Part shown: in pieces, positions 2,168-13,816 of the stretch
Layout: each line of letters begins with the position of its first letter
Position numbering within the stretch: position 1 is the first letter of the stretch
Sequence record: OR992643
Strand: one strand, 5' to 3'
Source of the DNA: Escherichia phage EP-M-A
Length of the DNA: 24,264 nt
Program-made: the position numbers and the translations under genes
The notes under the pieces: generated by a model
Database searches by the model: none
What the model was told of the DNA's origin: nothing
What the model saw: only the letters and a program-made list of their open reading frames with translations

Positions 2168-2397
2168 CTGAGTTCCAGTCACGCGTATTTACGGCGGTCG
2201 TCTCATTAACACGTAAAAAAGGGTCGTGCAGCGTTATGGACTTGCGCCGTAGTTATTTTAAGTACTATAGTTCCGCCGTTATTGAAGGGTCGTTGAAGGT
2301 GCTGGTTAAATCCGGTGTCGTGAAAAATGTTGGCGGGAAATATAGTGCCGTTGCTGAAGTTCGCGGAATGACCGCTACTTTAGAGGACCTGGAATAA
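2164..2397 (+). CDS. hypothetical protein, 77 aa, ending ...TATLEDLE
   Basis: ATGA overlap with the preceding gene; acidic C-terminal EDLE tail as on the primase-helicase and nuclease. Confidence 0.55.
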   Translation: MTEFQSRVFTAVVSLTRKKGSCSVMDLRRSYFKYYSSAVIEGSLKVLVKSGVVKNVGGKYSAVAEVRGMTATLEDLE

Positions 2398-2456
2398 AAG
2401 AAAGCCCCGACGCGGTGAACGCCGAGGCCAAATTACTTGCTGAAGGAATATACAAC

Positions 2457-4700
2457 ATGTCCGATGTAATTTTATCCTACTCGTGGTCTCGTCGCAACGC
2501 GCGAGCAGAGAAAAAGGATATAAACGTCAGAACCACACACATGGCAACACTGGACGACCTGAAAGAGTTAATCCGGCCGCTCGATGCTGTTCGTGATGGG
2601 GTTAACCCGAAGACCGCGCCCGGCTATATCACAGCCGCGTGCGACTCAACACACAGCACCGTAAAAGACCCGGAAACCGGGGACTTTAAGCAAGCGCGTA
2701 AAGGCTTCTTTTATCGCTGTGACGCGTCTGTAAGCAAATCGTCGCTGGCATATCTGGACTTCGACAGCACAACGCCGGAAGAGTATCAGGAAGCGGTGCG
2801 ACTGGTTAAGCGCAGCCGTCAGGCCATGTGCCTCTATACCACGGCATCCCATACCGATGAGTCACCGCGCTTTCGCGTCGTTATGCCCCTGGGCCGACCG
2901 GTTGAAGGTGGTGACATAATCCGTGTTCGTCATGGATTGCTTGAGCACTTCTTCAAAGGCATGGGTGCGGACCGCAGCGGGTTCACTCTTTCGCAGCCGA
3001 TGTACCTGCCGCCGGTCGGCTCTACCGTTATCTGGTCGCGTCGCAACGACCTGATTGACCCGGACGAGTTACTGGAAGGCATCCCGGATTACGATGTGAG
3101 CAGCGCATCGGATTACCAGATACCGGAAGAACTGCGCACCGCGTTTACAGACGCGTTCGAGGCGCTGGCGTTTGAGTATGGCGGCATCATGACGCCCCGC
3201 GGCCTTAAGATGCCAGCTACACCAGAACACGCAGAGAACTACAGCGACCCGACCCCTCGCCCGGATGACTTCCTGCTGTGTTTCCCGCGTGAGGGCTACG
3301 AAGCGCCTAACGTAACCATGATTCACGACACCGACATTACGGCAACCGAAGGCATGTCGCCGAAAGAGGTGTGGAGATACGCGTGCGATGCGACCGGGCT
3401 GCCATTCAGTGAAGTCGCCGAGGCTATCGGCTGGGGTGCACGTGAATATGTCTCATGCAGCCTCGACGACCTGGAAGATGGTGATGAGGACTCAGAGGAG
3501 GATGAGTTACCGGAACCGGTAAAGGCTGATTTCGTCGTTGAGGGGTATATGCCGTCGGATTGTATCTGGGATATTGTTGGGGAATCAGGCACGTACAAAT
3601 CATTCTATACGCTGGGTATGATGTACCTTAGCGCGGCGGGATACCGGTTTGCAGGCGCTGACACCCAGCGTTGCCACCACTTCTATATCGACGGTGAGGG
3701 GGGCGCAGCCACACGTACACGTATTGACGCGCTCGCGGCTAAATACGGCGCAGAGGGTAAAGATTATGTACACGTCATCGACATGGGCGAAGTCGGCAAA
3801 CTTAAAAGCCTGATTAAGTTAATGCGCGAAACTGCGGGCGATGAACCTATCGGCATGGTCGCGTTCGACACCCTTAACCAGACCCTGGCCCTGACGATTG
3901 ATAAGTTCGACGAGAACAGCTCATCAACGGCAATCGGTATGGGTAAAGTTATCGCCATCCTGAAAGAAGTACGTGATGCGACTAAAGCCGCGGTGGGCGT
4001 CGTCCACCATACACCGAAGGGTGGAAAGAAAGCCCGCGGTAGTGGGGCGCTGTATGCGGGCGTCGACGTGGAACTGACAATCGAACGCGCCACTGACCGT
4101 CAGATAAACGTATACCACTCTAAATTTAAGCATGGGCCTCAACAGAAGACGGTTGGCATGGTGCTGGAGTCGGTACAGTTCCGTGAAGCGCCACCACCGA
4201 AAGAGTACCGTGCGGTTGAGTTCCTCGGTAGCACAGAGGAATACGGCACAATCGTAAACCTCGACCTGCCGGAACCGCACAAGGCGCTTGTGCTGATGCC
4301 GTGGGGATTCGAGCCGTTCAAGACTGACGAGGAGAAGGAGCGGGAAGAAGGGCTGACAAAGGAAGGTAAAGAAAACGTAAAGAATGCTGTGAAACGTGGG
4401 AAGGATGAAGGGCGTAAGGAATCAATACTCGCCGCGCTGGAAGACCTGCAACAGTCTGACGACACCGGACGCGGTTTTACCCAACGACAGATAGTAGCGA
4501 ACTCGGGTGACCACGCCATCACCAACCATCATCTTGAGAAGATGCTGAAAGACGGGGAGTTGATGCTTGGGTGTGATATTAACGGTGAAGTTATGCCGGG
4601 CACATACCGGATACCGGAAAAGATGGGTGACAGATTAAGACCGAAGACAATATACGAACCGAATGAAATGCTGGTGGTGACAGAGGAGGATTTGGAATAG
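2457..4700 (+). CDS. bifunctional DNA primase/helicase: N-terminal archaeo-eukaryotic-primase-like (PrimPol) domain plus C-terminal RecA-fold (DnaB/RepA-like) ATPase
   Basis: AEP-like motifs (LDFD; TTASH); Walker A GESGTYKSF; Walker B MVAFDTLN; HHTPKG...ARGSGAL; ends VTEEDLE. Start set at ATG 2457 (GAAGGAA upstream) rather than the GTG at 2415. Confidence 0.8.
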   Translation: MSDVILSYSWSRRNARAEKKDINVRTTHMATLDDLKELIRPLDAVRDGVNPKTAPGYITAACDSTHSTVKDPETGDFKQARKGFFYRCDASVSKSSLAYLDFDSTTPEEYQEAVRLVKRSRQAMCLYTTASHTDESPRFRVVMPLGRPVEGGDIIRVRHGLLEHFFKGMGADRSGFTLSQPMYLPPVGSTVIWSRRNDLIDPDELLEGIPDYDVSSASDYQIPEELRTAFTDAFEALAFEYGGIMTPRGLKMPATPEHAENYSDPTPRPDDFLLCFPREGYEAPNVTMIHDTDITATEGMSPKEVWRYACDATGLPFSEVAEAIGWGAREYVSCSLDDLEDGDEDSEEDELPEPVKADFVVEGYMPSDCIWDIVGESGTYKSFYTLGMMYLSAAGYRFAGADTQRCHHFYIDGEGGAATRTRIDALAAKYGAEGKDYVHVIDMGEVGKLKSLIKLMRETAGDEPIGMVAFDTLNQTLALTIDKFDENSSSTAIGMGKVIAILKEVRDATKAAVGVVHHTPKGGKKARGSGALYAGVDVELTIERATDRQINVYHSKFKHGPQQKTVGMVLESVQFREAPPPKEYRAVEFLGSTEEYGTIVNLDLPEPHKALVLMPWGFEPFKTDEEKEREEGLTKEGKENVKNAVKRGKDEGRKESILAALEDLQQSDDTGRGFTQRQIVANSGDHAITNHHLEKMLKDGELMLGCDINGEVMPGTYRIPEKMGDRLRPKTIYEPNEMLVVTEEDLE

Positions 4701-4708
4701 GTAAAAAG

Positions 4709-4728
4709 AAAGGGGCGTTAAGCCCCTT
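4709..4728. terminator. bidirectional hairpin AAGGGGC-gttaa-GCCCCTT between convergent genes
   Basis: Inverted repeat read directly between the primase-helicase stop (4700) and the XRE regulator stop (4718). Confidence 0.5.
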
Positions 4729-4933
4729 CACCGAACGCCAGCCACTTGGCGTCTACTTGCAGCACTTCCGCCAGTTTAAACAGCGTTGCCGGGCGGACAT
4801 CCTGAGTTACCCCAAGGGCCAGCTGGTTAATTGCACCCTGGGAAACGCCGGTTAGTACAGCCAGACGGCGCTGGGAGATTCCAAGTTCTTTGCGGCGTTG
4901 TTCTACACGGATGCCTAGTTCAGATGGTTGCAT
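4718..4933 (-). CDS. XRE-family (Cro/CI-type) helix-turn-helix transcriptional regulator, 71 aa
   Basis: LGISQRRLAVLTGVSQGAINQLALG is a canonical HTH_3 motif; GGAG Shine-Dalgarno upstream of the ATG at 4933; divergent from the gene at 5058 with two palindromic operator-like sites between them. Confidence 0.8.
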   Translation of the reverse strand: MQPSELGIRVEQRRKELGISQRRLAVLTGVSQGAINQLALGVTQDVRPATLFKLAEVLQVDAKWLAFGEGA

Positions 4934-5057: not shown

Positions 5058-5528
5058 ATGTTAGACCAATTCTTAAAATTACTGGAACGTTTCGTAGTTG
5101 CACATGAACTGATTGCTGCGAACAGTGTGAAACAAGTAGTCGTTGCTGAAACCGCAACAATCGAGACCACTGTTGCGAAAGAAGCAACAAAAGAAATCCC
5201 AGTCGAAGGTGAAGACGTCGTTGACATTAAACCTGCAGAAGAAGAGAAGCCGAAACGCAAGCCGCGTAAAGCTAAAGTAGAGGAGCCGACGCCAGAGCCG
5301 GAAGAAGAGAAAGAAGAAGTCGATTACCAGTCTCTGCGTGACCAGATTCAGGCTATCGATGACGCAATTAACGAAGGTCCTAGCGATGCCGCGTGCGATG
5401 ATTCCGATGAACTGCTGGAAGAGTTCACCGGTAAGAAGATGAAGATTGCCGAGATTAAAGACGAAGACCTGGCCGAATACCTGGAACGCCTGACAGCAAT
5501 CAAGAACAAGTATTTTGAAGAAGAATAA
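5058..5528 (+). CDS. highly acidic, Glu/Asp/Lys-rich protein, 156 aa; function unknown (possible DNA-mimic or anti-defence candidate)
   Basis: Strong Shine-Dalgarno; first gene after the operator-controlled promoter; followed by a hairpin terminator. No recognisable catalytic motif. Confidence 0.7.
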   Translation: MLDQFLKLLERFVVAHELIAANSVKQVVVAETATIETTVAKEATKEIPVEGEDVVDIKPAEEEKPKRKPRKAKVEEPTPEPEEEKEEVDYQSLRDQIQAIDDAINEGPSDAACDDSDELLEEFTGKKMKIAEIKDEDLAEYLERLTAIKNKYFEEE

Positions 5529-5571: not shown

Positions 5572-5844
5572 ATGATTTACCAACTATACCGCGCCGTTGA
5601 CAGGCGGGATAACACAGAGGCGCTATGGTTATTGCGCGCGCCGTCCGGTGCACACCAGATGGAAGAGATGGCGTACTTAGGCAAAGTGCCACGGCCTAAA
5701 GACATAGGCCGCCACGTGTCGCATATTAAGCGTACGACTTTCGCCAAGCCTGACTTTTATGTCTTCGAGTCGATGTATGGCTGGGCTATGCATTGCCATC
5801 ACAAGACGCGACATTTAATTGACCAGTGGGAGAACAGGGTATGA
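5572..5844 (+). CDS. hypothetical protein, 90 aa
   Basis: GAGGG Shine-Dalgarno 8 nt upstream; ATGA overlap with the downstream nuclease gene; its initiation region repeats the one in front of the DNA polymerase. Confidence 0.6.
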   Translation: MIYQLYRAVDRRDNTEALWLLRAPSGAHQMEEMAYLGKVPRPKDIGRHVSHIKRTTFAKPDFYVFESMYGWAMHCHHKTRHLIDQWENRV

Positions 5845-7082
5845 TTCTTAAAGAACGCGGCGGCAATAATGATGTACATGCCTTACTGTCACCGTCAGGC
5901 GCTAAAAAGTGGCTGAGTTGTGCTGCATCACTGGCCTGTGAAAAAGATATTCCTAACACATCTGGTAAAGCTGCCGTTACAGGGACCGCGTGCCACACTA
6001 TAGCTGAGGTCCATCTCAACGCTTATATTCGCGGAACTGCGCTACCGTTAGAGCGTGAAGTCGGTGCTTATGTTCTGGATGAGGGCAAAGGCCAGATTAA
6101 GGCGCTAATCAGTCCTATGAAAGGCGCTGTACTGATTACGGCGGACATGATTGAGCAGGTGCGCAAGTACACCGACTACTGCAAACCGATTATCGACGTG
6201 GCTACTTTCGCTAAGCTGGAGATGCGCGTAAATCTTACTGAGGTATTGCATCCGGGGTATGAAGGCGTTGAGACGTTCGGAACCGCAGACCTTGTTGCCG
6301 TTCAGGAACTGACAAACACCGACGAGCACATGCTCATTATCGGCGACCTTAAAACAGGGCGGCATCGTGTCGAAGCGAAAGAAAACAAGCAGCTTATGCT
6401 TTACGCTCTCGGTGTTTATCGCAGACTTAAGAGACGTTATAACATAACAACCGTTCGTCTGGTTATCTTCCAGCCGTACGCTGGCGGTGCGTCGGAGTGG
6501 GACATCCCGGTTGAAGGGCTGGAACTGTTCGCCAAGTTCGCACAGAAACGCGCGCTGTTAGCGCTAGATGCGTACTTCCGCGGTAAGAAGAACCTGAAAG
6601 CGTCGGACTTTAAGCCGTCGGTAGATGGTTGTCAGTGGTGTAGGTTCTCTGAACAATGCGCCGCGCGTACAAAGACGGTTAATTCTGTACTGGCGGAAGA
6701 ACTTGAAGACGACTTTGCACTAGAACTAACGCCGGAGCAACTCGTCGCCGAGTATGAGAAGTTGCCGTTGTTGCGCCAGCACATCGATAAGGTCGAGAAA
6801 GCGATGGCGGCCGTGTTGCATTCCGGTAAGAAAGTGCCAGGGTACAAACTGGTTGAAGGCCGCCCGGGTAATCGTGCGTGGAAAGACGCGGAGAAAGTAA
6901 CAGAACTCTACGGCGACAAGCTGACTAAAGAAGTGCTCATGACGCCTACCGAAGCTGTTAAAGTCATACCGGAAGAAGAACTGAAAGACTTCATTACCCG
7001 TAAGCCGGGCGCACCATGTGTCGCAACGGCAGACGACAAACGTCCTGAGTGGAATCAGGTAACAGAGGAGGATTTAGAATGA
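5841..7082 (+). CDS. PD-(D/E)XK exonuclease of the Cas4/RecB-nuclease type with a four-cysteine cluster (probable recombination exonuclease)
   Basis: N-terminal Cys (WLSCAAS); nuclease core TADLVAV...IGDLKTG and QLMLYAL; C-terminal CQWCRFSEQC (C-x2-C-x5-C); ends VTEEDLE. Start set at ATG 5841. Confidence 0.8.
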   Translation: MILKERGGNNDVHALLSPSGAKKWLSCAASLACEKDIPNTSGKAAVTGTACHTIAEVHLNAYIRGTALPLEREVGAYVLDEGKGQIKALISPMKGAVLITADMIEQVRKYTDYCKPIIDVATFAKLEMRVNLTEVLHPGYEGVETFGTADLVAVQELTNTDEHMLIIGDLKTGRHRVEAKENKQLMLYALGVYRRLKRRYNITTVRLVIFQPYAGGASEWDIPVEGLELFAKFAQKRALLALDAYFRGKKNLKASDFKPSVDGCQWCRFSEQCAARTKTVNSVLAEELEDDFALELTPEQLVAEYEKLPLLRQHIDKVEKAMAAVLHSGKKVPGYKLVEGRPGNRAWKDAEKVTELYGDKLTKEVLMTPTEAVKVIPEEELKDFITRKPGAPCVATADDKRPEWNQVTEEDLE

Positions 7083-7279
7083 TTCGTAAAATGTTCAGAG
7101 TAATTGGCGGTTTTGTGGCGTTTTTAACTTATCACGCGCTAATATTGCCGCTTGTCATAATGCTTCTTCCGTTTTTCGCGTATACCGCGTTCAAGTGCAG
7201 GAAAATAGAGCTAGAGGATTTGGTGTACGCCAAAGAAGTTGAGTGGGTTCGTAATTTGAAGTGGCCTAACTATACCTAA
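7079..7279 (+). CDS. small hydrophobic (probable membrane) protein, 66 aa
   Basis: The GAGGAGGA formed by the EEDLE codons of the upstream gene serves as its Shine-Dalgarno; ATGA overlap; hydrophobic stretch FVAFLTYHALILPLVIMLLPFFAY. Confidence 0.55.
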   Translation: MIRKMFRVIGGFVAFLTYHALILPLVIMLLPFFAYTAFKCRKIELEDLVYAKEVEWVRNLKWPNYT

Positions 7280-7406: not shown

Positions 7407-8033
7407 ATGGGACTGAAATTAAATCTGCGTAAAGTAAACACTGCATGGGTTAACGTATTTGAACGCGAAAAAGACCGTGAAAACGATGATGGTTCAATCA
7501 CTAAAGGCCAGTACAGCGCAACTATTATCCTGCCGTCTGACCATGCCCAAATCGATGCACTCTACGACAATGTTTACGCTGTAGTTGAAGAAGCGTTAGG
7601 TGCAGCCGCCGCCGAGAAGTGGATGAAGTCCAACTATGGCGAAGGTAAGCACATGGATAAATGCGCGATTAAAGACATTGCTGAGCGCGACAATCCGTTT
7701 GAAGACTTCCCGGAAGGCTTCTACTTCAAAGCGAAGGCACAGAAACAGCCACTGATTGTAACCTCTAAAAAAGGTGAGACCCAGGTAGAGCAGGACTTCA
7801 ACGTAGACGGTGAACAGATTGAAGGCGAACAGGTTTACAGTGGCTGCGTTGCTAACGTAAGCGTCGAAATCTGGTTCAGCCAGAAATATAAAGTTCTCGG
7901 TGTTAACCTGCTGGCGATTAAGTACGTCGGGGAAGGTAAAGCGTTTGGTGGCTCTAAAGTCGCCGCAAGCGTCGATGACCTGGAAGACGACGAAGAAGAT
8001 GGATCACCGCGCCGCGAACGTCGCCGTCGCTAA
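7407..8033 (+). CDS. single-stranded DNA-binding protein (T7 gp2.5-like), 208 aa
   Basis: Resembles gp2.5-type SSBs (C-terminal ...KAFGG... followed by the acidic tail VDDLEDDEEDG), here extended by a basic RRERRRR end; hairpin terminator downstream. Confidence 0.65.
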   Translation: MGLKLNLRKVNTAWVNVFEREKDRENDDGSITKGQYSATIILPSDHAQIDALYDNVYAVVEEALGAAAAEKWMKSNYGEGKHMDKCAIKDIAERDNPFEDFPEGFYFKAKAQKQPLIVTSKKGETQVEQDFNVDGEQIEGEQVYSGCVANVSVEIWFSQKYKVLGVNLLAIKYVGEGKAFGGSKVAASVDDLEDDEEDGSPRRERRRR

Positions 8034-8092: not shown

Positions 8093-10273
8093 ATGAGTTA
8101 CCTGTTCTTAGACTTTGAAACATTCTCCGAAGCCGATTTGAAGAAAGTCGGTTCTTACGCTTACGCCGAGCATCCGTCAACCGAAGTGCTTATCTGTACA
8201 TACTCTTTTGACGACGAGCCAGTACGTGTATGGGATTGCACTGACGGCAGCGACATGCCAGGAGATTTGCACCGTGCTCTGCGCCGTCTGGTGAAGCCAA
8301 ACAGCCGCATTAAGATGGTGTGGCACAACGGTGGACTTTTCGATAGGCCCATCATGAAACACTGCTGGGGCTTTGATATTCCCGTAAGCAACACCATTGA
8401 TACGATGATTTGGGCGTTTCGTCACGCGCTGCCGGGTTCACTTGATGCGCTGTGTGAAGTGCTCGGCGTGTCTGCTGACAATGCAAAAGATAAACGCGGC
8501 AAGGCGCTGATTCAGCGTTTCTCTAAACCGACACCGAAGAATTACAAAATCCGCCGCTACACCGCAGAAACACACCCGGACGAGTGGGCGCTGTTCATCA
8601 AGTACGCCGTGAGCGACATCACTGCGATGCGTGAAGTCTTCCATAAGCTGCCGCGTTGGGGTAACTCTGAGTTCGAAGACCGTGTACTGGAACTGGACCA
8701 GTTAATCAACGACCGCGGGTTTAAGGTTGACGTTGCACTGGCGGAAGCCGCTATTGAAGCCGTGGAGAAACACAAAGCGCAGTTACAGGAGGAAGCCCAA
8801 CGCAAATACGGCGGCTCGCTTACTGGTAAGGACTTTCTGCCGATTCTTCGTGAACTCTCCCCTGCACACCGCATACACAACGCACAGAAGTCGACGCTTA
8901 ACGACCTGCTGGCGGACGATGATTTACCGGACGACGCACGCACAATTATCGAAATGCGCCTCGGGGCCGCGTCCACCGCGTCAACGAAATATAACCCGCT
9001 GCTGTTGGGCCGCTCGTCTGACGACCGACGCCGTGGTTGCATCCAGTACGGTGGGGCCAAGCGTACGTTACGGTTTGCAGGTAAAGGCTTCCAGCCGCAG
9101 AACCTGGCGCGCGGGTACTATCACGATGATGAATTGGATAAAGGCATTTCAGCGTTACTTAAAGGCCGGGCACACCGCCGTTTTGATGTAGCCAAGCTAA
9201 CGGCATCGACGGTACGTAGCTGCATCATATCGGAAGTGGGGCATAAGTTTGTCGTCGCCGATTACTCAAACGTCGAAGGCCGTGGTTTAGCGTGGCTGGC
9301 AGGCGAAGAAACCGCGCTAGATACGTTCCGCGCCGGACTGGATATTTACTGCGTAACCGCAGGTAAGATGTTCGGCATGGACCCAGATTACATTAAGAAA
9401 GAACGTAAAGATTTGCGCCAGATTGGTAAGGCCTGCGAACTTGGGCTTGGCTATGCGGGCGGTGTCGGCGCATTCGTACAGTTCGCCAAGAACCTTGGCC
9501 TTGACCTGGTTGATATGGCAAAAACAATGGATGGGACTTTCCCCGACCACATCTGGGCTGCTACCGCACGTGGATATGAGTGGGCGCGTATTCAGGAAGC
9601 CAAGCGACCACCACGTCCAGGTGAAAAGGATGACCGACCATCATATATTCTTGATAAGAAAGTGTGGCGTACCTGTGACGCTATCAAGCGCATGTGGCGC
9701 GAGTCTCACCCGGAAACAGTAGCTTTCTGGCGAGATATTGAAGATGCAGCTATGGCGGCTATCCGCAACCCAGGTAAAGAGTTCACCGCAGGGCCGCGGG
9801 GCGTTAAGTTTTCGCGTAACGTAGAAACAGACACCAACGGCAACAAAGTCGCGGGCTGGTGGTTGCGCATGACGTTGCCGTCGGGCCGCGTTATGTCTTA
9901 CCCGGGCGTTGGTTTAAGTGTATCAAAAGAGACAGACGAAGACGGGAAGGTGTCTACTAACGTGCGCATCAAGTACCAGGGCGAAAACCAGTTAACCAGG
10001 CAGTGGGGCTTCCAGTATACCTACTCCGGTAAACTGGTGGAAAACTGCACTCAGGCGCTGTGCCGTGATTTGCTGGCTAATGCCCTGCTTAACGTCGAAG
10101 CAAACGGCTACCCAATTGTGCTTCATGTTCACGATGAGATTATCTGCGAGACGCCAGATTTACCGGAATACAATGTCGCAGAGCTTGAACGGTTGATGTG
10201 CGAATTACCAGAGTGGGCAGAGGGGTTCCCTCTTGTAGCGGAAGGTGCGGAGATGAAGCGCTATGCTAAGTAA
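8093..10273 (+). CDS. family A DNA polymerase with N-terminal 3'-5' proofreading exonuclease domain, 726 aa
   Basis: Exo I motif FLDFETFS; Pol A motif A VVADYSNVEGRGLAWLAG; motif B RQIGKACELGLGYAGG; motif C VLHVHDEIICE. Confidence 0.9.
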   Translation: MSYLFLDFETFSEADLKKVGSYAYAEHPSTEVLICTYSFDDEPVRVWDCTDGSDMPGDLHRALRRLVKPNSRIKMVWHNGGLFDRPIMKHCWGFDIPVSNTIDTMIWAFRHALPGSLDALCEVLGVSADNAKDKRGKALIQRFSKPTPKNYKIRRYTAETHPDEWALFIKYAVSDITAMREVFHKLPRWGNSEFEDRVLELDQLINDRGFKVDVALAEAAIEAVEKHKAQLQEEAQRKYGGSLTGKDFLPILRELSPAHRIHNAQKSTLNDLLADDDLPDDARTIIEMRLGAASTASTKYNPLLLGRSSDDRRRGCIQYGGAKRTLRFAGKGFQPQNLARGYYHDDELDKGISALLKGRAHRRFDVAKLTASTVRSCIISEVGHKFVVADYSNVEGRGLAWLAGEETALDTFRAGLDIYCVTAGKMFGMDPDYIKKERKDLRQIGKACELGLGYAGGVGAFVQFAKNLGLDLVDMAKTMDGTFPDHIWAATARGYEWARIQEAKRPPRPGEKDDRPSYILDKKVWRTCDAIKRMWRESHPETVAFWRDIEDAAMAAIRNPGKEFTAGPRGVKFSRNVETDTNGNKVAGWWLRMTLPSGRVMSYPGVGLSVSKETDEDGKVSTNVRIKYQGENQLTRQWGFQYTYSGKLVENCTQALCRDLLANALLNVEANGYPIVLHVHDEIICETPDLPEYNVAELERLMCELPEWAEGFPLVAEGAEMKRYAK

Positions 10274-11473: not shown

Positions 11474-12399
11474 ACTATTACAACGAGTGGGATAAAGGCG
11501 CAACCGCGTGGCTGCGCGAGTTGATAAAACAGGGCCACATACCTTTTGGAGTTGTAGATGAAAGAAGCATTACTGAAGTTAGACCAGAAGACCTTGACGG
11601 GTTCACCCAGTGTCATTTTTTCGCTGGTATCGGCGGCTGGTCTCTCGCGCTCAGACTTGCGGGAGTTTCGGAAGATACGCCTCTCTGGACGGGAAGCCCG
11701 CCTTGCCAACCGTTTAGCGCGGCAGGAAAACAACTCGGACAGTTCGACCCGAGACACCTCGCTCCAGTCTTCCTTGACCTCATCAGCGAGTGCCGTCCTC
11801 CAGTCATCTTTGGGGAACAAGTTGCGCCAGCAATTGCAAAATCGTGGATGTGCGATTTACAAACTCACCTGGAAGGAGAAGACTACGCCGTCGGGTTTGC
11901 CGTACTCCCAGCTTGTAGCGTCGGCGCACCGCACAAACGCGACAGGCTGTTCTTCGGCGCGCACAGACTGGCCCACACCGGCGGTATCACTGATAACAAA
12001 CGACGTGAACATGCGCAGCACAGACGGCAGGACGAAACCGAACAAACTGGGATGGGCCGCTGCGATGGCGGCATGGGTGACGCCGACCGCGAACGATTAC
12101 AGAGGGAGCGGAGAGACAGTTATTCGCAAGGACGGGAAGGACAGGACATTCAGCAGGCTGGACTACTCAACGGAGCAGGGACTGAAAATATCGCGGCCAA
12201 TCCGCATCACGGCTTCTGGTCAGATACTGACTGGCTCGGATGCCGGGATGGAAAATTCAGGCCAGTTGAACCCGGCACATTCCCGCTGGCTAATGGGGTA
12301 CCCGCCAGAGTGGGACGATTGCGCGGTTATGGCAATGCCATCGTCCCGCAAGTAGCCGCTGAATTTATAAAGGCATTCATGGGGGCGGTAAATGAGTAA
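11470..12399 (+). CDS. DNA (cytosine-5)-methyltransferase; the long ORF in this frame carries motifs I, IV, VI, VIII and X, but the TRD and motif IX appear to lie in the +1 frame (ORF 11558..12355)
   Basis: This frame: HFFAGIGG (I), SPPCQPFSAAGKQ (IV), FGEQV (VI), GAPHKRDRLFFGA (VIII), GYGNAIVPQVAAEFIKA (X). The +1 frame: RPIRITASG and LNPAHSRWLMGYPPEW (motif IX-like). Confidence 0.75.
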   Translation: MNYYNEWDKGATAWLRELIKQGHIPFGVVDERSITEVRPEDLDGFTQCHFFAGIGGWSLALRLAGVSEDTPLWTGSPPCQPFSAAGKQLGQFDPRHLAPVFLDLISECRPPVIFGEQVAPAIAKSWMCDLQTHLEGEDYAVGFAVLPACSVGAPHKRDRLFFGAHRLAHTGGITDNKRREHAQHRRQDETEQTGMGRCDGGMGDADRERLQRERRDSYSQGREGQDIQQAGLLNGAGTENIAANPHHGFWSDTDWLGCRDGKFRPVEPGTFPLANGVPARVGRLRGYGNAIVPQVAAEFIKAFMGAVNE

Positions 12400-13816
12400 G
12401 TTTCAAAGGCGCGAGTACCAGAAGCTCATGACTTCGTTCATGCTGCAACACCCGCGCTGTAATATCTGGTGCGGAATGGGGGGAGGTAAAACCTCCTCCA
12501 CTATGTGGGTGCTCAACCGCCTGTTCCGCAACGGGCAGCTTACGGAAGAGGACCGCGTGTTAATCCTTGCCCCGTTACGTGTTGCGTCCGGTACGTGGCC
12601 CGCTGAACAAGAGAAATGGCAATTCCCTTGTCTGCGTGTCGTAGATGCAACTGGTTCGGAGAAGCGCCGCATCGCGGCGCTGGAGTCAGATGCTAACGTG
12701 GTGTGCACTAACTACGAAGTTATCGAATGGCTGATTGACTACTACGGCAAAGACGACTGGCCTTTCACGGTTATCGTTGCCGATGAAAGCACGAAGCTAA
12801 AATCTTTCCGCAGCTGTTCGGGTGGGAGCAAGCGAGCGAAGGCGCTCAGCAAAGTGGCATTCGGTAAAGTTAAGCGTTTCATCAACCTGACTGGTACACC
12901 ATCACCTAACGGCCTCAAGGACTTGTGGGGCCAGAACTGGTTTATCGACGCAGGAGAGCGCCTCGGTTCATCGTACACGGCATTCACCGACCGCTGGTTT
13001 AACTCAGTGCAGAAAGGTAAGTCGGCTATGGCGCGTGAATATCACGCCCGCCCGGGTGCGGATACTGAGATTCATCAGAAGATGAAAGACATTAGTCTCA
13101 CGATTGACGCTGCCGAGTGGTTTGGTTGTGAAGCGCCGATTATTGTACCGGTTGAAATCGACCTGCCTAAGAAAGCGCGTCAGGCGTACATCGATATGGA
13201 GGAGAAGTTATTCGCGGAACTGGAGAGCGGAGAAGTTGAAGCCGCTAACGCGGCGGCGAAGACGTCGAAGTGCCTCCAGATTGCATCCGGCGCCGTGTAT
13301 GTGTCGGGGCCAGACGGCGAAGCAACCAAAGACTGGGAGAAAGTGCACGACACGAAACTGGATGCGCTGGGGTCGATTGTTGAGGAGTTACAGGGTGCAC
13401 CGCTGCTTGTGGCTTATCAGTTCAAGCACGAACTGGAACGCATCCTGAAACGTTTCCCGCAGGCACAGGCGTTTGCAAAAGGCGCTAAGGGTAATAAGCA
13501 GATGGAAGCGTGGAACCGTGGCGAAATCGAAATCCTATGCGTACATCCTGCGTCAGCCGGGCATGGTTTGAATTTACAGGACGGCGGTCACCATCTGGCG
13601 TTTATTTCGCAGGGCTGGAACCTTGAGCACTATTTGCAGGTCGTTGAGCGCATCGGCCCGGTACGCCAGAAACAGGCGGGCCACGAGCGCCCGGTGTTCC
13701 TCTACCATATCGTAGCTAAAGACACGCTGGATGAGGTTGTTGCTGCGCGTACAGACGAGAAGAAATCTGTACAGGAAGAGTTGCTTAACTACATGAAGAG
13801 ACGAGGTAAGAAATGA
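12392..13816 (+). CDS. SNF2/Rad54-family DNA-dependent ATPase (helicase-like), 474 aa
   Basis: Motif I GMGGGKT; motif II VIVADESTKLK; motif III LTGTPSPNGLKDLW; C-terminal helicase motifs HPASAGHGLNLQDGGHHLAF; overlaps the methyltransferase stop. Confidence 0.85.
   Translation: MSKFQRREYQKLMTSFMLQHPRCNIWCGMGGGKTSSTMWVLNRLFRNGQLTEEDRVLILAPLRVASGTWPAEQEKWQFPCLRVVDATGSEKRRIAALESDANVVCTNYEVIEWLIDYYGKDDWPFTVIVADESTKLKSFRSCSGGSKRAKALSKVAFGKVKRFINLTGTPSPNGLKDLWGQNWFIDAGERLGSSYTAFTDRWFNSVQKGKSAMAREYHARPGADTEIHQKMKDISLTIDAAEWFGCEAPIIVPVEIDLPKKARQAYIDMEEKLFAELESGEVEAANAAAKTSKCLQIASGAVYVSGPDGEATKDWEKVHDTKLDALGSIVEELQGAPLLVAYQFKHELERILKRFPQAQAFAKGAKGNKQMEAWNRGEIEILCVHPASAGHGLNLQDGGHHLAFISQGWNLEHYLQVVERIGPVRQKQAGHERPVFLYHIVAKDTLDEVVAARTDEKKSVQEELLNYMKRRGKK

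What the first reader, a model, noticed from the sequence alone, without database searches (positions are those of the whole stretch)
4676..4700. Shared C-terminal VTEEDLE tail on primase-helicase and nuclease, nearly identical at the nucleotide level
The primase-helicase ends ...VVTEEDLE (gtg aca gag gag gat ttg gaa tag, 4677-4700) and the Cas4-like nuclease ends ...QVTEEDLE (gta aca gag gag gat tta gaa tga, 7059-7082), 22 of 24 nt identical including most synonymous positions. The 77-aa protein ends ...TLEDLE (2380-2397) and the SSB carries ...VDDLEDDEEDG. By analogy with T7, where acidic C-termini of gp4 and gp2.5 dock on the polymerase, this looks like a common docking peptide. The encoded GAGGAGGA also acts as the Shine-Dalgarno for the gene at 7079.
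Basis: partly seen in the sequence, partly recalled or inferred. Interest (0 to 1): 0.6.

Follow-up and report, generated by a model that had tools for sequence, protein, structure and literature searches.

The report
Shared acidic docking tail on replication proteins
Several DNA-replication and recombination proteins of this E. coli phage carry the same short acidic "…T-E-E-D-L-E" peptide, and related phages keep it with lineage-specific spellings, so it most likely plugs these proteins into one shared partner in the replication machinery, as in phage T7 but on more kinds of protein.

Summary
The primase-helicase (ends 4697) and the DUF2800 nuclease (ends 7079) both end in VTEEDLE. The DNA identity is 20/24, not 22/24 (19/21 without the stop codons).

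The conserved object is the peptide, not the DNA. Synonymous sites vary freely in relatives, and p77 spells the motif with other codons.

[AV][ST][DE]xDL sits at both C-termini in 75 related loci, with primase-helicase identity down to about 26%. It also sits just after the OB fold of the gp2.5-like SSB, in the primase-helicase interdomain linker (3459-3506, new here), and on p77, a winged-helix protein with a disordered tail. In a complete Kagunavirus genome, only these three of 81 proteins end in it.

In distant phages with the duf2800-gp2.5-polA module, nuclease and SSB share other tail spellings that track genome lineage:
- DDFxD[LV]…DL[VIA] in many lineages.
- DDEV in Enc34 and Chi-like phages, on seven or more proteins.

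PolA never carries the tail.

Best reading: a shared short linear docking motif for a phage-encoded hub, either PolA or the SSB groove. No binding was tested. GAGGAGGA (7065-7072) is a plausible Shine-Dalgarno for the overlapping gene at 7079. This is a new variant of the T7 acidic-tail principle.

The parts
4677..4697 (+). C-terminal tail VTEEDLE of the primase-helicase (ORF 2415-4700; likely start ATG 2457; stop 4698-4700)
   Evidence: A tail with [AV][ST][DE]xDL is present in 75/75 related loci that have both proteins. The primase-helicases of those clades are only 26-32% identical overall.
7059..7079 (+). C-terminal tail VTEEDLE of the DUF2800 / PD-(D/E)XK nuclease (ORF 5826-7082; stop 7080-7082)
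   Evidence: The tail lies beyond the Pfam DUF2800 model, which ends at residue 407 of 418. It is conserved down to 45% identity. An acidic F- or DL-type motif after the D[KP]RP anchor is seen across the family.
2377..2394 (+). C-terminal tail TLEDLE of p77 (2164-2397), a small winged-helix protein
   Evidence: AF2 gives a winged helix over residues 3-62 (pLDDT >90) and a disordered tail over 63-77. Foldseek matches are generic wHTH. The tail AT[LP]EDLE is kept in Kagunavirus and Jersey-like relatives at 68-97% identity, using different codons.
7971..8003 (+). SSB post-OB acidic segment VDDLEDDEEDG, an internal copy of the motif
   Evidence: D191 L192 E193 D194 D195 are invariant in homologues down to 60% identity. 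The segment aligns with the DDFDD[ILV] motif of distant Enc34-type SSBs, with L in place of F. All near clades have A[ST]D[DNS]DL[DGES]D at this position.
8004..8030 (+). Basic C-terminal tip SPRRERRRR of the SSB
   Evidence: P201, R202, R203, R205, R206 invariant. It replaces the terminal acidic-hydrophobic motif of distant SSBs. It is a possible electrostatic partner of the acidic tails (inference).
3459..3506 (+). Internal copy of the motif in the primase-helicase interdomain linker (SLDDLEDGDEDSEEDE)
Evidence: It is conserved in all 13 aligned lineages as C[TQ]D[EA]DL[MDE]D.P, just upstream of the helicase Walker A region.
7065..7072 (+). GAGGAGGA inside the nuclease tail codons; likely Shine-Dalgarno for the overlapping downstream gene
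   Evidence: It lies 6 nt upstream of ATG 7079, and ATG/TGA overlap as ATGA. Among 55 distinct nuclease 3' ends: ATGA with GAGGAGGA 13, ATGA without 10, GAGGAGGA without ATGA 3, neither 29. Alleles without an overlapping gene read GAA GAA.
7079..7279 (+). p66, a small hydrophobic protein gene translationally coupled to the nuclease
   Evidence: The equivalent gene is annotated in Bas73 (Bas73_0045) with the same 4-nt overlap. It has no Pfam or PHROG hit.
8093..10273 (+). Family A DNA polymerase; the tail-less member of the module and a candidate receptor
   Evidence: A PolA homologue is present in 62/66 distant loci that have enough downstream sequence. It always ends RY[RK]K[DE] (KRYAK here) and never has an acidic tail.
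7407..7970 (+). OB-fold body of the Enc34-type (gp2.5-like) SSB; a candidate receptor
   Evidence: Pfam PF10991 and phrog_112. In crystals of Enc34 ORF6, two other DUF2815 proteins and T7 gp2.5, the acidic C-terminus lies in the beta-sheet groove of a neighbouring molecule (PMC5686142).
4709..4729 (-). Terminator-like hairpin just after the primase-helicase stop, serving the minus-strand HTH gene (4718-4933)
   Evidence: It shows that no plus-strand gene follows the primase-helicase, so GAGGAGGA at 4683-4690 has no start codon to serve.

Best explanation
The tail is a short linear docking motif: an acidic, disordered peptide with one conserved hydrophobic residue. The core here is [AV]-[ST]-[DE]-x-D-L.

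This phage carries five copies. They are at the C-termini of the primase-helicase, the DUF2800 recombination nuclease and the small winged-helix protein p77, and internally just after the OB fold of the gp2.5-like SSB and in the primase-helicase linker.

All copies are read by one phage-encoded receptor surface, so these proteins take turns at, or are gathered on, a common hub at the replication fork. The hub is most likely the tail-less family A polymerase (as T7 gp5 binds the tails of gp4 and gp2.5), the tail-binding groove of the SSB OB domain, or both.

Shown: the motif, its confinement to the replication module, its conservation, and its co-variation between proteins of one genome. Inferred: that it docks, and what it docks on.

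The GAGGAGGA within the nuclease tail codons doubles as the ribosome-binding site of the overlapping next gene.
For: 1. Specificity.
- Window: only p77, primase-helicase, nuclease and SSB carry the motif.
- Whole Bas73 genome: 3 of 81 CDS end in it, and all three are in the replication module.
- 74 related loci: 135 of the 142 ORFs ending in the motif belong to these three families. The other 7 are a 63-68 aa ORF lying between the SSB and Pol genes in a Klebsiella-phage clade.

2. Peptide-level selection.
- The tails persist where the primase-helicase is only 26-32% and the nuclease 45-57% identical.
- Synonymous sites vary and p77 uses other codons.

3. Co-variation within genomes.
- Near clades: the four residues before DL match between primase-helicase and nuclease at 1.96 per genome, against 1.37±0.16 for shuffled pairings (1 of 10000 shuffles reaches it).
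- Distant loci: the nuclease and SSB termini match better within a genome than across genomes (0 of 5000 shuffles).
- F is replaced by L in the SSB motif of all near clades, where nuclease, primase-helicase and p77 also use L.
- Casjensviridae use a different code ([DE]nEV) on primase, ORF3, nuclease, SSB, TerS and others.
- BcepC6B primase and nuclease both end GSDLA.

4. Host. Salmonella Chi-like phage YSD1 and Salmonella Jersey-like phages share a host genus but use different codes. This favours a phage-encoded receptor.

5. Disorder. The p77 tail has pLDDT <65 after a confident winged helix. The C-terminal region of the Dhillonvirus DUF2800 homologue is reported as predicted disordered (bioRxiv 10.64898/2026.07.14.737667).

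6. Precedent.
- T7 gp4 and gp2.5 acidic tails bind and compete for basic patches on gp5/trx (bioRxiv 10.64898/2026.05.20.726333).
- The tail lies in the OB-domain groove of neighbouring molecules in DUF2815 and gp2.5 crystals (PMC5686142).

7. PolA is the constant tail-less member of the module.
Against: - No binding or structural test of any tail-receptor pair was possible. The AF2 model of the SSB failed (pLDDT 36), and complexes cannot be predicted with these tools.
- The distance from the conserved Leu to the C-terminus varies from 0 to 6 residues, and two copies are internal. The free carboxylate is therefore not part of a fixed recognition element, unlike T7 and bacterial SSB-Ct.
- In Enc34 the tail also sits on TerS and other early proteins. 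That fits a general property of DNA-binding proteins as well as it fits a replisome hub.
- Tail classes follow phage phylogeny, so the shuffling tests are inflated by relatedness.
- The nuclease is dispensable in a Dhillonvirus, and deleting the T7 gp4 tail only lowers processivity. Any phenotype may therefore be mild.
Confidence: 0.6

Rival explanations
1. Cis-acting DNA mimic. Each acidic tail folds back on the DNA-binding surface of its own protein and tunes DNA affinity or specificity. This is shown for T7 gp2.5 and suggested for Enc34 ORF6. No common receptor is involved.
For: - Every tail-bearing protein binds DNA: helicase-primase, nuclease, SSB, winged-helix p77, and TerS in Enc34.
- Removing the Enc34 ORF6 tail changes its discrimination between ssDNA and dsDNA (PMC5686142).
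- The T7 gp2.5 tail competes with ssDNA (reference cited).
Against: Non-homologous DNA-binding surfaces would not demand the same [ST][DE]xDL spelling. They also would not change spelling together between lineages (EDLE, DDFxDL…DLV, DDEV). Charge alone would be enough.
Confidence: 0.15
2. Host-factor mimicry. The tail imitates the bacterial SSB C-terminal tip (…DFDDDIPF in E. coli; from my own knowledge) or another host motif. It recruits or blocks host proteins.
For: The distant form DDFDD[ILV] resembles DFDDDI. The tails are acidic with a hydrophobic residue, as SSB-Ct is.
Against: - The window's form has no Pro-Phe-COOH and ends in polar or acidic residues.
- Phages of the same host genus use different codes (Salmonella Jersey-like EDLE against Chi-like DDEV).
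- Phages of very different hosts (Staphylococcus, Phocaeicola, Burkholderia) share the DDF form.
Confidence: 0.1
3. Stability or degradation tag. The common tail marks early proteins for, or protects them from, a protease. One candidate is the HslV-family peptidase annotated in the related phage Bas73; host proteases are others.
For: The tail is restricted to early and DNA-metabolism proteins. Bas73 encodes an HslV-family peptidase.
Against: - There is no evidence for turnover.
- Two copies of the motif are internal.
- The module with shared tails occurs in phages of many phyla, and no common protease was seen in the loci examined.
Confidence: 0.05
4. DNA-level element. The 24-nt identity reflects a functional nucleotide sequence (ribosome-binding site, recombination or gene-conversion tract) rather than a peptide.
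For: GAGGAGGA at 7065-7072 very probably serves as the Shine-Dalgarno for the gene at 7079. The two sites share codon choice at 5 of 7 third positions.
Against: - Nothing is translated after the primase-helicase stop; a minus-strand terminator follows.
- Synonymous sites vary among relatives. A second nuclease allele spells the tail GTT AGT GAA GAA GAT TTG GAA. p77 spells it TTA GAG GAC CTG GAA in the window and TTA GAA GAC CTG GAA in relatives.
- The peptide is conserved where the DNA is not.
Confidence: 0.03

Closest known systems
Phage T7 acidic C-terminal tails of gp4 (primase-helicase) and gp2.5 (SSB), which dock on basic patches of gp5/thioredoxin
   Same: - The replisome type matches: a family A polymerase, a gp2.5-fold SSB and a bifunctional primase-helicase.
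- Both use acidic, flexible tails with a key hydrophobic residue, shared by helicase and SSB.
- In T7 the tails compete for one receptor (T7 tails read: gp2.5 …EADEDGDF, gp4 …DWSNDTDF).
   Different: - T7 tails share only the terminal D-F. Here seven residues are identical.
- The hydrophobic residue is Leu and is not the last residue.
- The motif is also on a recombination nuclease (T7 gp6 has no such tail), on a small winged-helix protein and in a linker.
- The SSB copy is internal and is followed by a basic tip.
- The primase-helicase belongs to a different family (AAA_25).
- The receptor is untested.
Bacterial SSB C-terminal tip (SSB-Ct, …DDDIPF) as an interaction hub
   Same: It is an acidic peptide with hydrophobic residues at the end of a disordered tail, and it organises genome-maintenance proteins. 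The distant phage form DDFDD[ILV] looks similar.
   Different: The logic is reversed. In bacteria one tail on SSB is read by many partner pockets. Here many proteins carry the tail and presumably one receptor reads it. There is no Pro-Phe-COOH, and the SSB has a different fold class (gp2.5/Enc34 type).
Sliding-clamp binding motifs (bacterial QL[SD]LF, eukaryotic PIP box)
   Same: Many client proteins of replication and repair carry one short motif, often at an extreme terminus in a disordered segment, for a single hub.
   Different: The sequences are unrelated and no clamp gene is in the module. The analogy is one of logic only.
duf2800-gp2.5-polA gene module (described for Firmicutes and Gram-negative phages, PMC8093625)
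   Same: The window has exactly this module: PF10926 nuclease, PF10991 SSB and PolA, adjacent and in that order.
   Different: The module was described from gene order. I found no mention of a shared tail in the papers holding DUF2800 (18) or DUF2815 (22) (titles and abstracts scanned, three papers searched by term).
Enc34 ORF6 SSB crystal contacts (tail in a neighbour's beta-sheet groove)
   Same: The SSB family is the same (PF10991). The acidic C-terminus occupies a defined groove on another SSB molecule, which is a ready-made receptor for identical tails on other proteins.
   Different: It was interpreted as SSB-SSB oligomerisation. The last 11 residues, including the shared DEV end, were not visible. 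The presence of the same tail on Enc34 primase, nuclease, TerS and others was not discussed.

Membership tests
T7-type acidic C-terminal docking tails (gp4 / gp2.5 to gp5) | Acidic, flexible C-terminal tail | tested here: met
   The tails are TEEDLE, TEEDLE and LEDLE. The p77 tail has pLDDT <65 after a confident domain. The region is reported as predicted disordered in a DUF2800 homologue.
T7-type acidic C-terminal docking tails (gp4 / gp2.5 to gp5) | C-terminal aromatic residue (Phe) as the last residue | tested here: not met
   The conserved hydrophobic residue is Leu, 0-6 residues from the end. T7 ends in D-F. Distant relatives do have acidic-F plus a terminal L/F-[VIA].
T7-type acidic C-terminal docking tails (gp4 / gp2.5 to gp5) | The same kind of tail on both the helicase-primase and the gp2.5-type SSB | tested here: met
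   Primase-helicase has VTEEDLE and SSB has SVDDLEDD. This holds in all near clades. The SSB copy is internal.
T7-type acidic C-terminal docking tails (gp4 / gp2.5 to gp5) | The tail binds basic patches on the DNA polymerase, and tails compete or are interchangeable | not testable with these tools
   No complex prediction or binding assay is available. Only the indirect point stands that PolA is the constant tail-less module member.
Bacterial SSB-Ct tip | D-D-D-[IL]-P-F-COOH on a homotetrameric OB-fold SSB | tested here: not met
   None of the tails ends in Pro-Phe. The SSB is PF10991 (gp2.5/Enc34 type), not the bacterial SSB family.
Beta-clamp binding motif | QL[SD]LF-like pentapeptide | tested here: not met
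   The tails contain no Gln and no L-F pair.
duf2800-gp2.5-polA replication/recombination module | Adjacent genes for a PF10926 nuclease, a PF10991 SSB and a family A polymerase | tested here: met
   The genes are at 5826-7082, 7407-8033 and 8093-10273. Pfam E-values are 1.7e-68, 1.3e-15 and 8.6e-15. The module is named in PMC8093625.
Shine-Dalgarno site with translational coupling | Purine-rich GGAGG core 5-10 nt upstream of a start codon that overlaps the upstream stop | tested here: met
   GAGGAGGA is at 7065-7072, ATG at 7079 and TGA at 7080-7082. The downstream gene is annotated in Bas73. Translation itself was not tested.

The most novel reading that the evidence does not exclude
Phages with the duf2800-gp2.5-polA module use a lineage-specific "tail code". 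One short, co-evolving acidic-hydrophobic peptide is attached to a whole set of otherwise unrelated DNA-metabolism proteins: SSB, recombination nuclease, primase and/or helicase, small winged-helix proteins, and even the small terminase in Enc34 and Chi-like phages. The spellings are EDLE here, DDFxDL…DLV in many others and DDEV in Casjensviridae. The peptide plugs all these proteins into a single phage-encoded hub (the polymerase or the SSB groove). The result is a clamp-less equivalent of the PIP-box / clamp-binding-motif toolbelt. It would also make replisomes of different phages mutually incompatible.
Probability: 0.4. Interest if true: 0.8.

Novelty: new variant of a known kind. Interest (0 to 1): 0.62.

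Why it matters
The finding would give a simple, testable wiring rule for the replisome of a very large and poorly studied group of phages, those with the duf2800-gp2.5-polA module. These infect Proteobacteria, Firmicutes and Bacteroidota and include therapy-relevant Kagunavirus, Jerseyvirus and Dhillonvirus.

It points to which proteins meet at one site. It assigns a likely replisome role to small unknown proteins such as p77. It suggests how the recombination nuclease is coupled to the SSB/annealing protein and to the fork.

It offers a peptide handle for pull-downs, for inhibitors, and for engineering or insulating phage replisomes. It extends the T7 acidic-tail principle from two proteins to a family of clients.

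Tried and rejected
- The search for homologous proteins with the nuclease, p77 and SSB returned almost only close relatives. Hits were ≥95% identical for the nuclease and ≥87% for p77; 16 hits came back for the SSB. These searches were useless for diversity, so diversity came from the search for related loci and the representative search instead.
- A 40-sequence DUF2800 alignment was too diverse for the search for related loci, so an 8-sequence one was used. I picked those 40 by eye for DDF-type tails, which makes its "F ≥90%" figure biased.
- The AF2 model of the SSB with a 10-sequence alignment failed (mean pLDDT 36). It says nothing on whether the DL segment docks on the OB fold.
- The idea that p77 is a paralogue of the primase-helicase C-terminal domain was rejected. 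BLASTP gave E = 0.24 and only a 7-residue match elsewhere.
- Foldseek of p77 gave only generic winged-helix matches (E ≥ 0.006), so no specific function can be assigned.
- A strict regular expression for the tail in DUF2800 representatives under-counted (41% against 3.4% in internal windows). Anchoring on D[KP]RP gave the fuller picture.
- The paper PMC2781589 (T7 gp2.5 terminal Phe) is not held.
- Covariation between tail code and polymerase or SSB surface residues was considered and not attempted. All module proteins share one phylogeny, so the result would not discriminate between receptors.
Full report
**What the window is.** The window is 99.9% identical over 8.5 kb to Escherichia phage EP-B-K_E2 and about 90% identical to many Kagunavirus phages. 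Salmonella Jersey-like phages are more distant relatives. The region around the finding is the replication and recombination module:

| Feature | Coordinates | Assignment |
|---|---|---|
| p77 | 2164-2397 | phrog_5169, unknown function |
| Primase-helicase | 2415-4700 | likely start ATG 2457; AAA_25; phrog_3228 |
| HTH regulator | 4718-4933, minus strand | helix-turn-helix |
| Two unknown proteins | between 4933 and 5826 | none |
| Nuclease | 5826-7082 | DUF2800 / PD-(D/E)XK |
| p66 | 7079-7279 | small hydrophobic protein |
| SSB | 7407-8033 | Enc34-type (gp2.5-like), PF10991 |
| Polymerase | 8093-10273 | family A |

The gene calls agree with the independent annotation of phage Bas73. This is the duf2800-gp2.5-polA module named in PMC8093625.

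**The observation.** Both proteins end in VTEEDLE at the stated coordinates. The nucleotide identity is 20/24, or 19/21 without the stops, and not 22/24.
- A 21-mer search allowing two mismatches finds only these two sites, against 0.00 expected.
- p77 ends TLEDLE, and the SSB carries VDDLEDDEEDG followed by SPRRERRRR.
- Of all ORFs of at least 60 aa in the window, only these four carry the motif near the C-terminus.

**Peptide or DNA?** I fetched 74 related viral loci in which the nuclease is 45-96% identical. The tails are kept in both proteins throughout:

| Clade | Primase-helicase tail | Nuclease tail |
|---|---|---|
| Kagunavirus | VTEEDLE | V[ST]EEDLE |
| Jersey-like | TTEGDLE | VTEDDLE(A) |
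| Klebsiella VLCpiS11a-like | ASDEDLNS | ASDEDLS |
| Dhillonvirus | ATDDDLKD | ATDEDLSNE |

Synonymous positions vary freely.
- A second Kagunavirus nuclease allele spells the tail GTT AGT GAA GAA GAT TTG GAA TAA.
- p77 spells its tail TTA GAG GAC CTG GAA in the window and TTA GAA GAC CTG GAA in relatives.

Selection therefore acts on the peptide. The near-identity of the two DNA stretches in this window is shared codon choice and nothing more.

The GAG GAG spelling at the nuclease end goes with an ATG that overlaps the stop (ATGA). Among 55 distinct nuclease 3' ends, 13 have both, 10 have ATGA only, 3 have GAGGAGGA only and 29 have neither. This supports the Shine-Dalgarno reading for the gene at 7079, although the counts are not phylogenetically independent. 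After the primase-helicase stop there is only a minus-strand terminator.

**Specificity.**
- Among 16,749 six-frame ORFs in the 74 loci, 142 ORFs of at least 50 aa end in [DE][DEG]DL plus 0-3 residues. Of these, 135 are homologues of p77, the primase-helicase or the nuclease.
- The other 7 are a 63-68 aa ORF lying between the SSB and polymerase genes in the Klebsiella clade, ending TATDEDLE.
- In the complete annotated Bas73 genome, 3 of 81 proteins end in the motif, and they are these same three.

**More copies.**
- Twelve further lineages show the same pattern. Over 75 loci with both proteins there are 28 distinct tail pairs.
- The four residues before DL are more alike within a genome (1.96) than in shuffled pairings (1.37 ± 0.16; 1 of 10,000 shuffles reaches it).
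- In all of these clades the SSB has A[ST]D[DNS]DL[DGES]D directly after the OB fold. D-L-E-D-D is invariant in SSB homologues down to 60% identity.
- The primase-helicase has a second, internal copy in the linker before the helicase domain. In the window it is SLDDLEDGDEDSEEDE at 3459-3506. In all 13 aligned lineages it is C[TQ]D[EA]DL[MDE]D.P.
- p77 is predicted as a winged helix (residues 3-62, pLDDT >90) with a disordered tail. Its fold matches are generic.

**The wider family.** I scored 150 cluster representatives of DUF2800. After a conserved D[KP]RP anchor, the C-terminal end carries an acidic-aromatic or D-L motif in nearly all of them. Of 127 anchored sequences:
- 71 have acidic-F.
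- 16 have F after a non-acidic residue.
- 18 have D-L only.
- 22 have acidic-W or acidic-Y, mostly the RPEW/RPEY of the near clade, which also carry D-L.

I then fetched 80 loci of distant members. The gene after the nuclease is the Enc34-type SSB (PF10991 confirmed for two of them), and its tail mirrors the nuclease tail. Two examples:
- NDFDDVSDDTLTADLI against ADDFDDISEGADAEALI.
- NDFENVDETESAESLI against EDFDEITEGADAESLI.

The last 2-6 residues match better within a genome than across genomes (0 of 5000 shuffles, 68 distinct pairs). Some primase-helicases join in (AEP+VapE …SQEFADLA; PrimPol+D5_N …KDDFENVEDARA). The pattern holds in cultured phages of three phyla:

| Phage | Nuclease tail | SSB tail | Primase tail |
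|---|---|---|---|
| Staphylococcus SAP8 | EDDFDKL | EDDFDELDTDDEDFL | |
| Phocaeicola BV57P2 | NDFDKL | DDFDALDDNDDLFN | |
| Burkholderia BcepC6B | EDDFEVAPADDGSDLA | EDDFEATAPETEDELD | DFEGSDLA |

Casjensviridae use yet another code. In Enc34 the primase, ORF3, DUF2800, the SSB, TerS, ORF60 and ORF64 end in [DE]3-4EV, and the helicase ends in WDDEED. Salmonella phage YSD1 does the same.

The family A polymerase is present in 62 of 66 distant loci that have enough sequence. It always ends RY[RK]K[DE] and never has an acidic tail.

**Mechanism.** One peptide is attached to non-homologous proteins of one functional module. It is disordered, under purifying selection, and re-spelled together in all carriers from lineage to lineage. 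That is the signature of a short linear motif read by a single co-evolving receptor.

Phages of the same host genus use different codes (Jersey-like against Chi-like Salmonella phages), so a phage-encoded receptor is more likely than a host one. Two candidates stand out:
- **The polymerase.** By analogy with T7, the acidic tails of gp4 and gp2.5 bind, and compete for, basic patches on gp5/thioredoxin.
- **The SSB OB domain.** In crystals of Enc34 ORF6, two other DUF2815 proteins and T7 gp2.5, the acidic C-terminus lies in the beta-sheet groove of a neighbouring molecule.

In the window's clade the invariant basic tip of the SSB (PRRERRRR) is a further possible electrostatic partner. I could not discriminate between these. 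The SSB model failed and complexes cannot be predicted here. Docking itself is therefore an inference, at about 0.6. The polymerase and the SSB each stand at roughly 0.3 as receptor, within that 0.6.

**Rivals.**
- Cis-acting DNA-mimic tails would not need a common, co-varying spelling.
- Host SSB-Ct mimicry fits the DDFDD[ILV] form superficially. It does not fit the host/code distribution or the window's polar ending.
- A degradation or stability tag has no support.
- A DNA-level element is refuted as the cause of conservation, though the Shine-Dalgarno role at 7065-7072 stands as a secondary use.

**Comparison with known systems.** The closest is the T7 gp4/gp2.5 tail system. I read the T7 tails directly: …EADEDGDF and …DWSNDTDF, with none on the gp6 exonuclease.
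- Same: the replisome type, acidic flexible tails with a key hydrophobic residue, and sharing between helicase and SSB.
- Different: Leu rather than a terminal Phe, much higher identity between carriers, more carriers (nuclease, winged-helix protein, linker; TerS in Enc34), and an internal copy plus a basic tip on the SSB.

The logic resembles clamp-binding motifs (many clients, one hub) more than bacterial SSB-Ct (one tail, many readers).

I found no description of the shared tail in papers mentioning DUF2800 or DUF2815 (three of them searched by term). A recent preprint notes only a predicted disordered C-terminal region in the Dhillonvirus nuclease, which is dispensable and triggers a retron.

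**Verdict.**
- The docking-peptide interpretation is well supported by comparative evidence but unproven. The polymerase as partner is only one of two good candidates.
- The DNA-level near-identity is not meaningful in itself.
- This is a new variant of a known principle, and it appears to be general for a very large phage group.

Noticed in passing
window 3459-3506: The primase-helicase interdomain linker SLDDLEDGDEDSEEDE is an internal copy of the tail motif, 9 of 11 residues identical to the SSB segment SVDDLEDDEED. It is conserved as C[TQ]D[EA]DL[MDE]D.P in 13 lineages.
   Followed up: yes
window 8004-8030; L058, L155-L225 SSB genes: The SSB ends in an invariant basic tip (PRRERRRR). In Dhillonvirus and the Klebsiella-clade phages this region is expanded into long alternating acidic/basic repeats, a polyampholyte tail that is unusual for an SSB.
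   Followed up: partly
L227/L230 (Hafnia phage Enc34), L228 (Salmonella phage YSD1): Casjensviridae carry a different shared tail, [DE]3-4EV-COOH. It sits on primase, ORF3, the DUF2800 nuclease, the crystallised SSB ORF6, the small terminase, ORF60 and ORF64, with WDDEED on the helicase. The polymerase lacks it.
   Followed up: partly
window 10259-10273 and PolA genes of L075-L154, L227, L228, L231-L233: The family A polymerase of this module has a conserved basic C-terminus RY[RK]K[DE] (KRYAK here, FYRKD in Enc34, FYMKD in SAP8). Its role is unknown.
   Followed up: no
window 7059-7100 and the nuclease 3' ends of L001-L074: Kagunavirus nuclease genes have two 3'-end haplotypes that switch exactly at the stop codon and are followed by different small genes. 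This is a mosaic junction placed at the tail.
   Followed up: partly
window 2403-2429 and 4709-4729 (minus strand): Terminator-like hairpins lie directly after the stops of p77 and the primase-helicase. Both are preceded on the plus strand by AAAGAAAG. The first has no obvious minus-strand gene to terminate and overlaps the listed GTG start of the primase-helicase ORF.
   Followed up: no
window 7079-7279: p66 is strongly hydrophobic (MIRKMFRVIGGFVAFLTYHALILPLVIMLLPFFAYTAF…), which is odd for a gene inside a replication module. It has no Pfam or PHROG hit.
   Followed up: no
window 5058-5528: p156 (phrog_3127, unknown function) has KDEDLAEY 22 residues from its end and finishes …YFEEE. This may be a weak extra instance of the motif or may be chance.
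   Followed up: no
L051-L057, about 12390-12600: A 63-68 aa ORF lying between the SSB and polymerase genes of the Klebsiella VLCpiS11a-like clade ends TATDEDLE. It is a different small carrier of the tail from p77.
   Followed up: partly
L092, L130 (distant loci): Small-terminase-like proteins (Sf6_terminase Pfam hit for L092) end …DEDLDGLV and …KDFGDLA, matching the nuclease and SSB endings of the same contigs (GLV; DLA). As in Enc34, TerS may carry the tail.
   Followed up: partly
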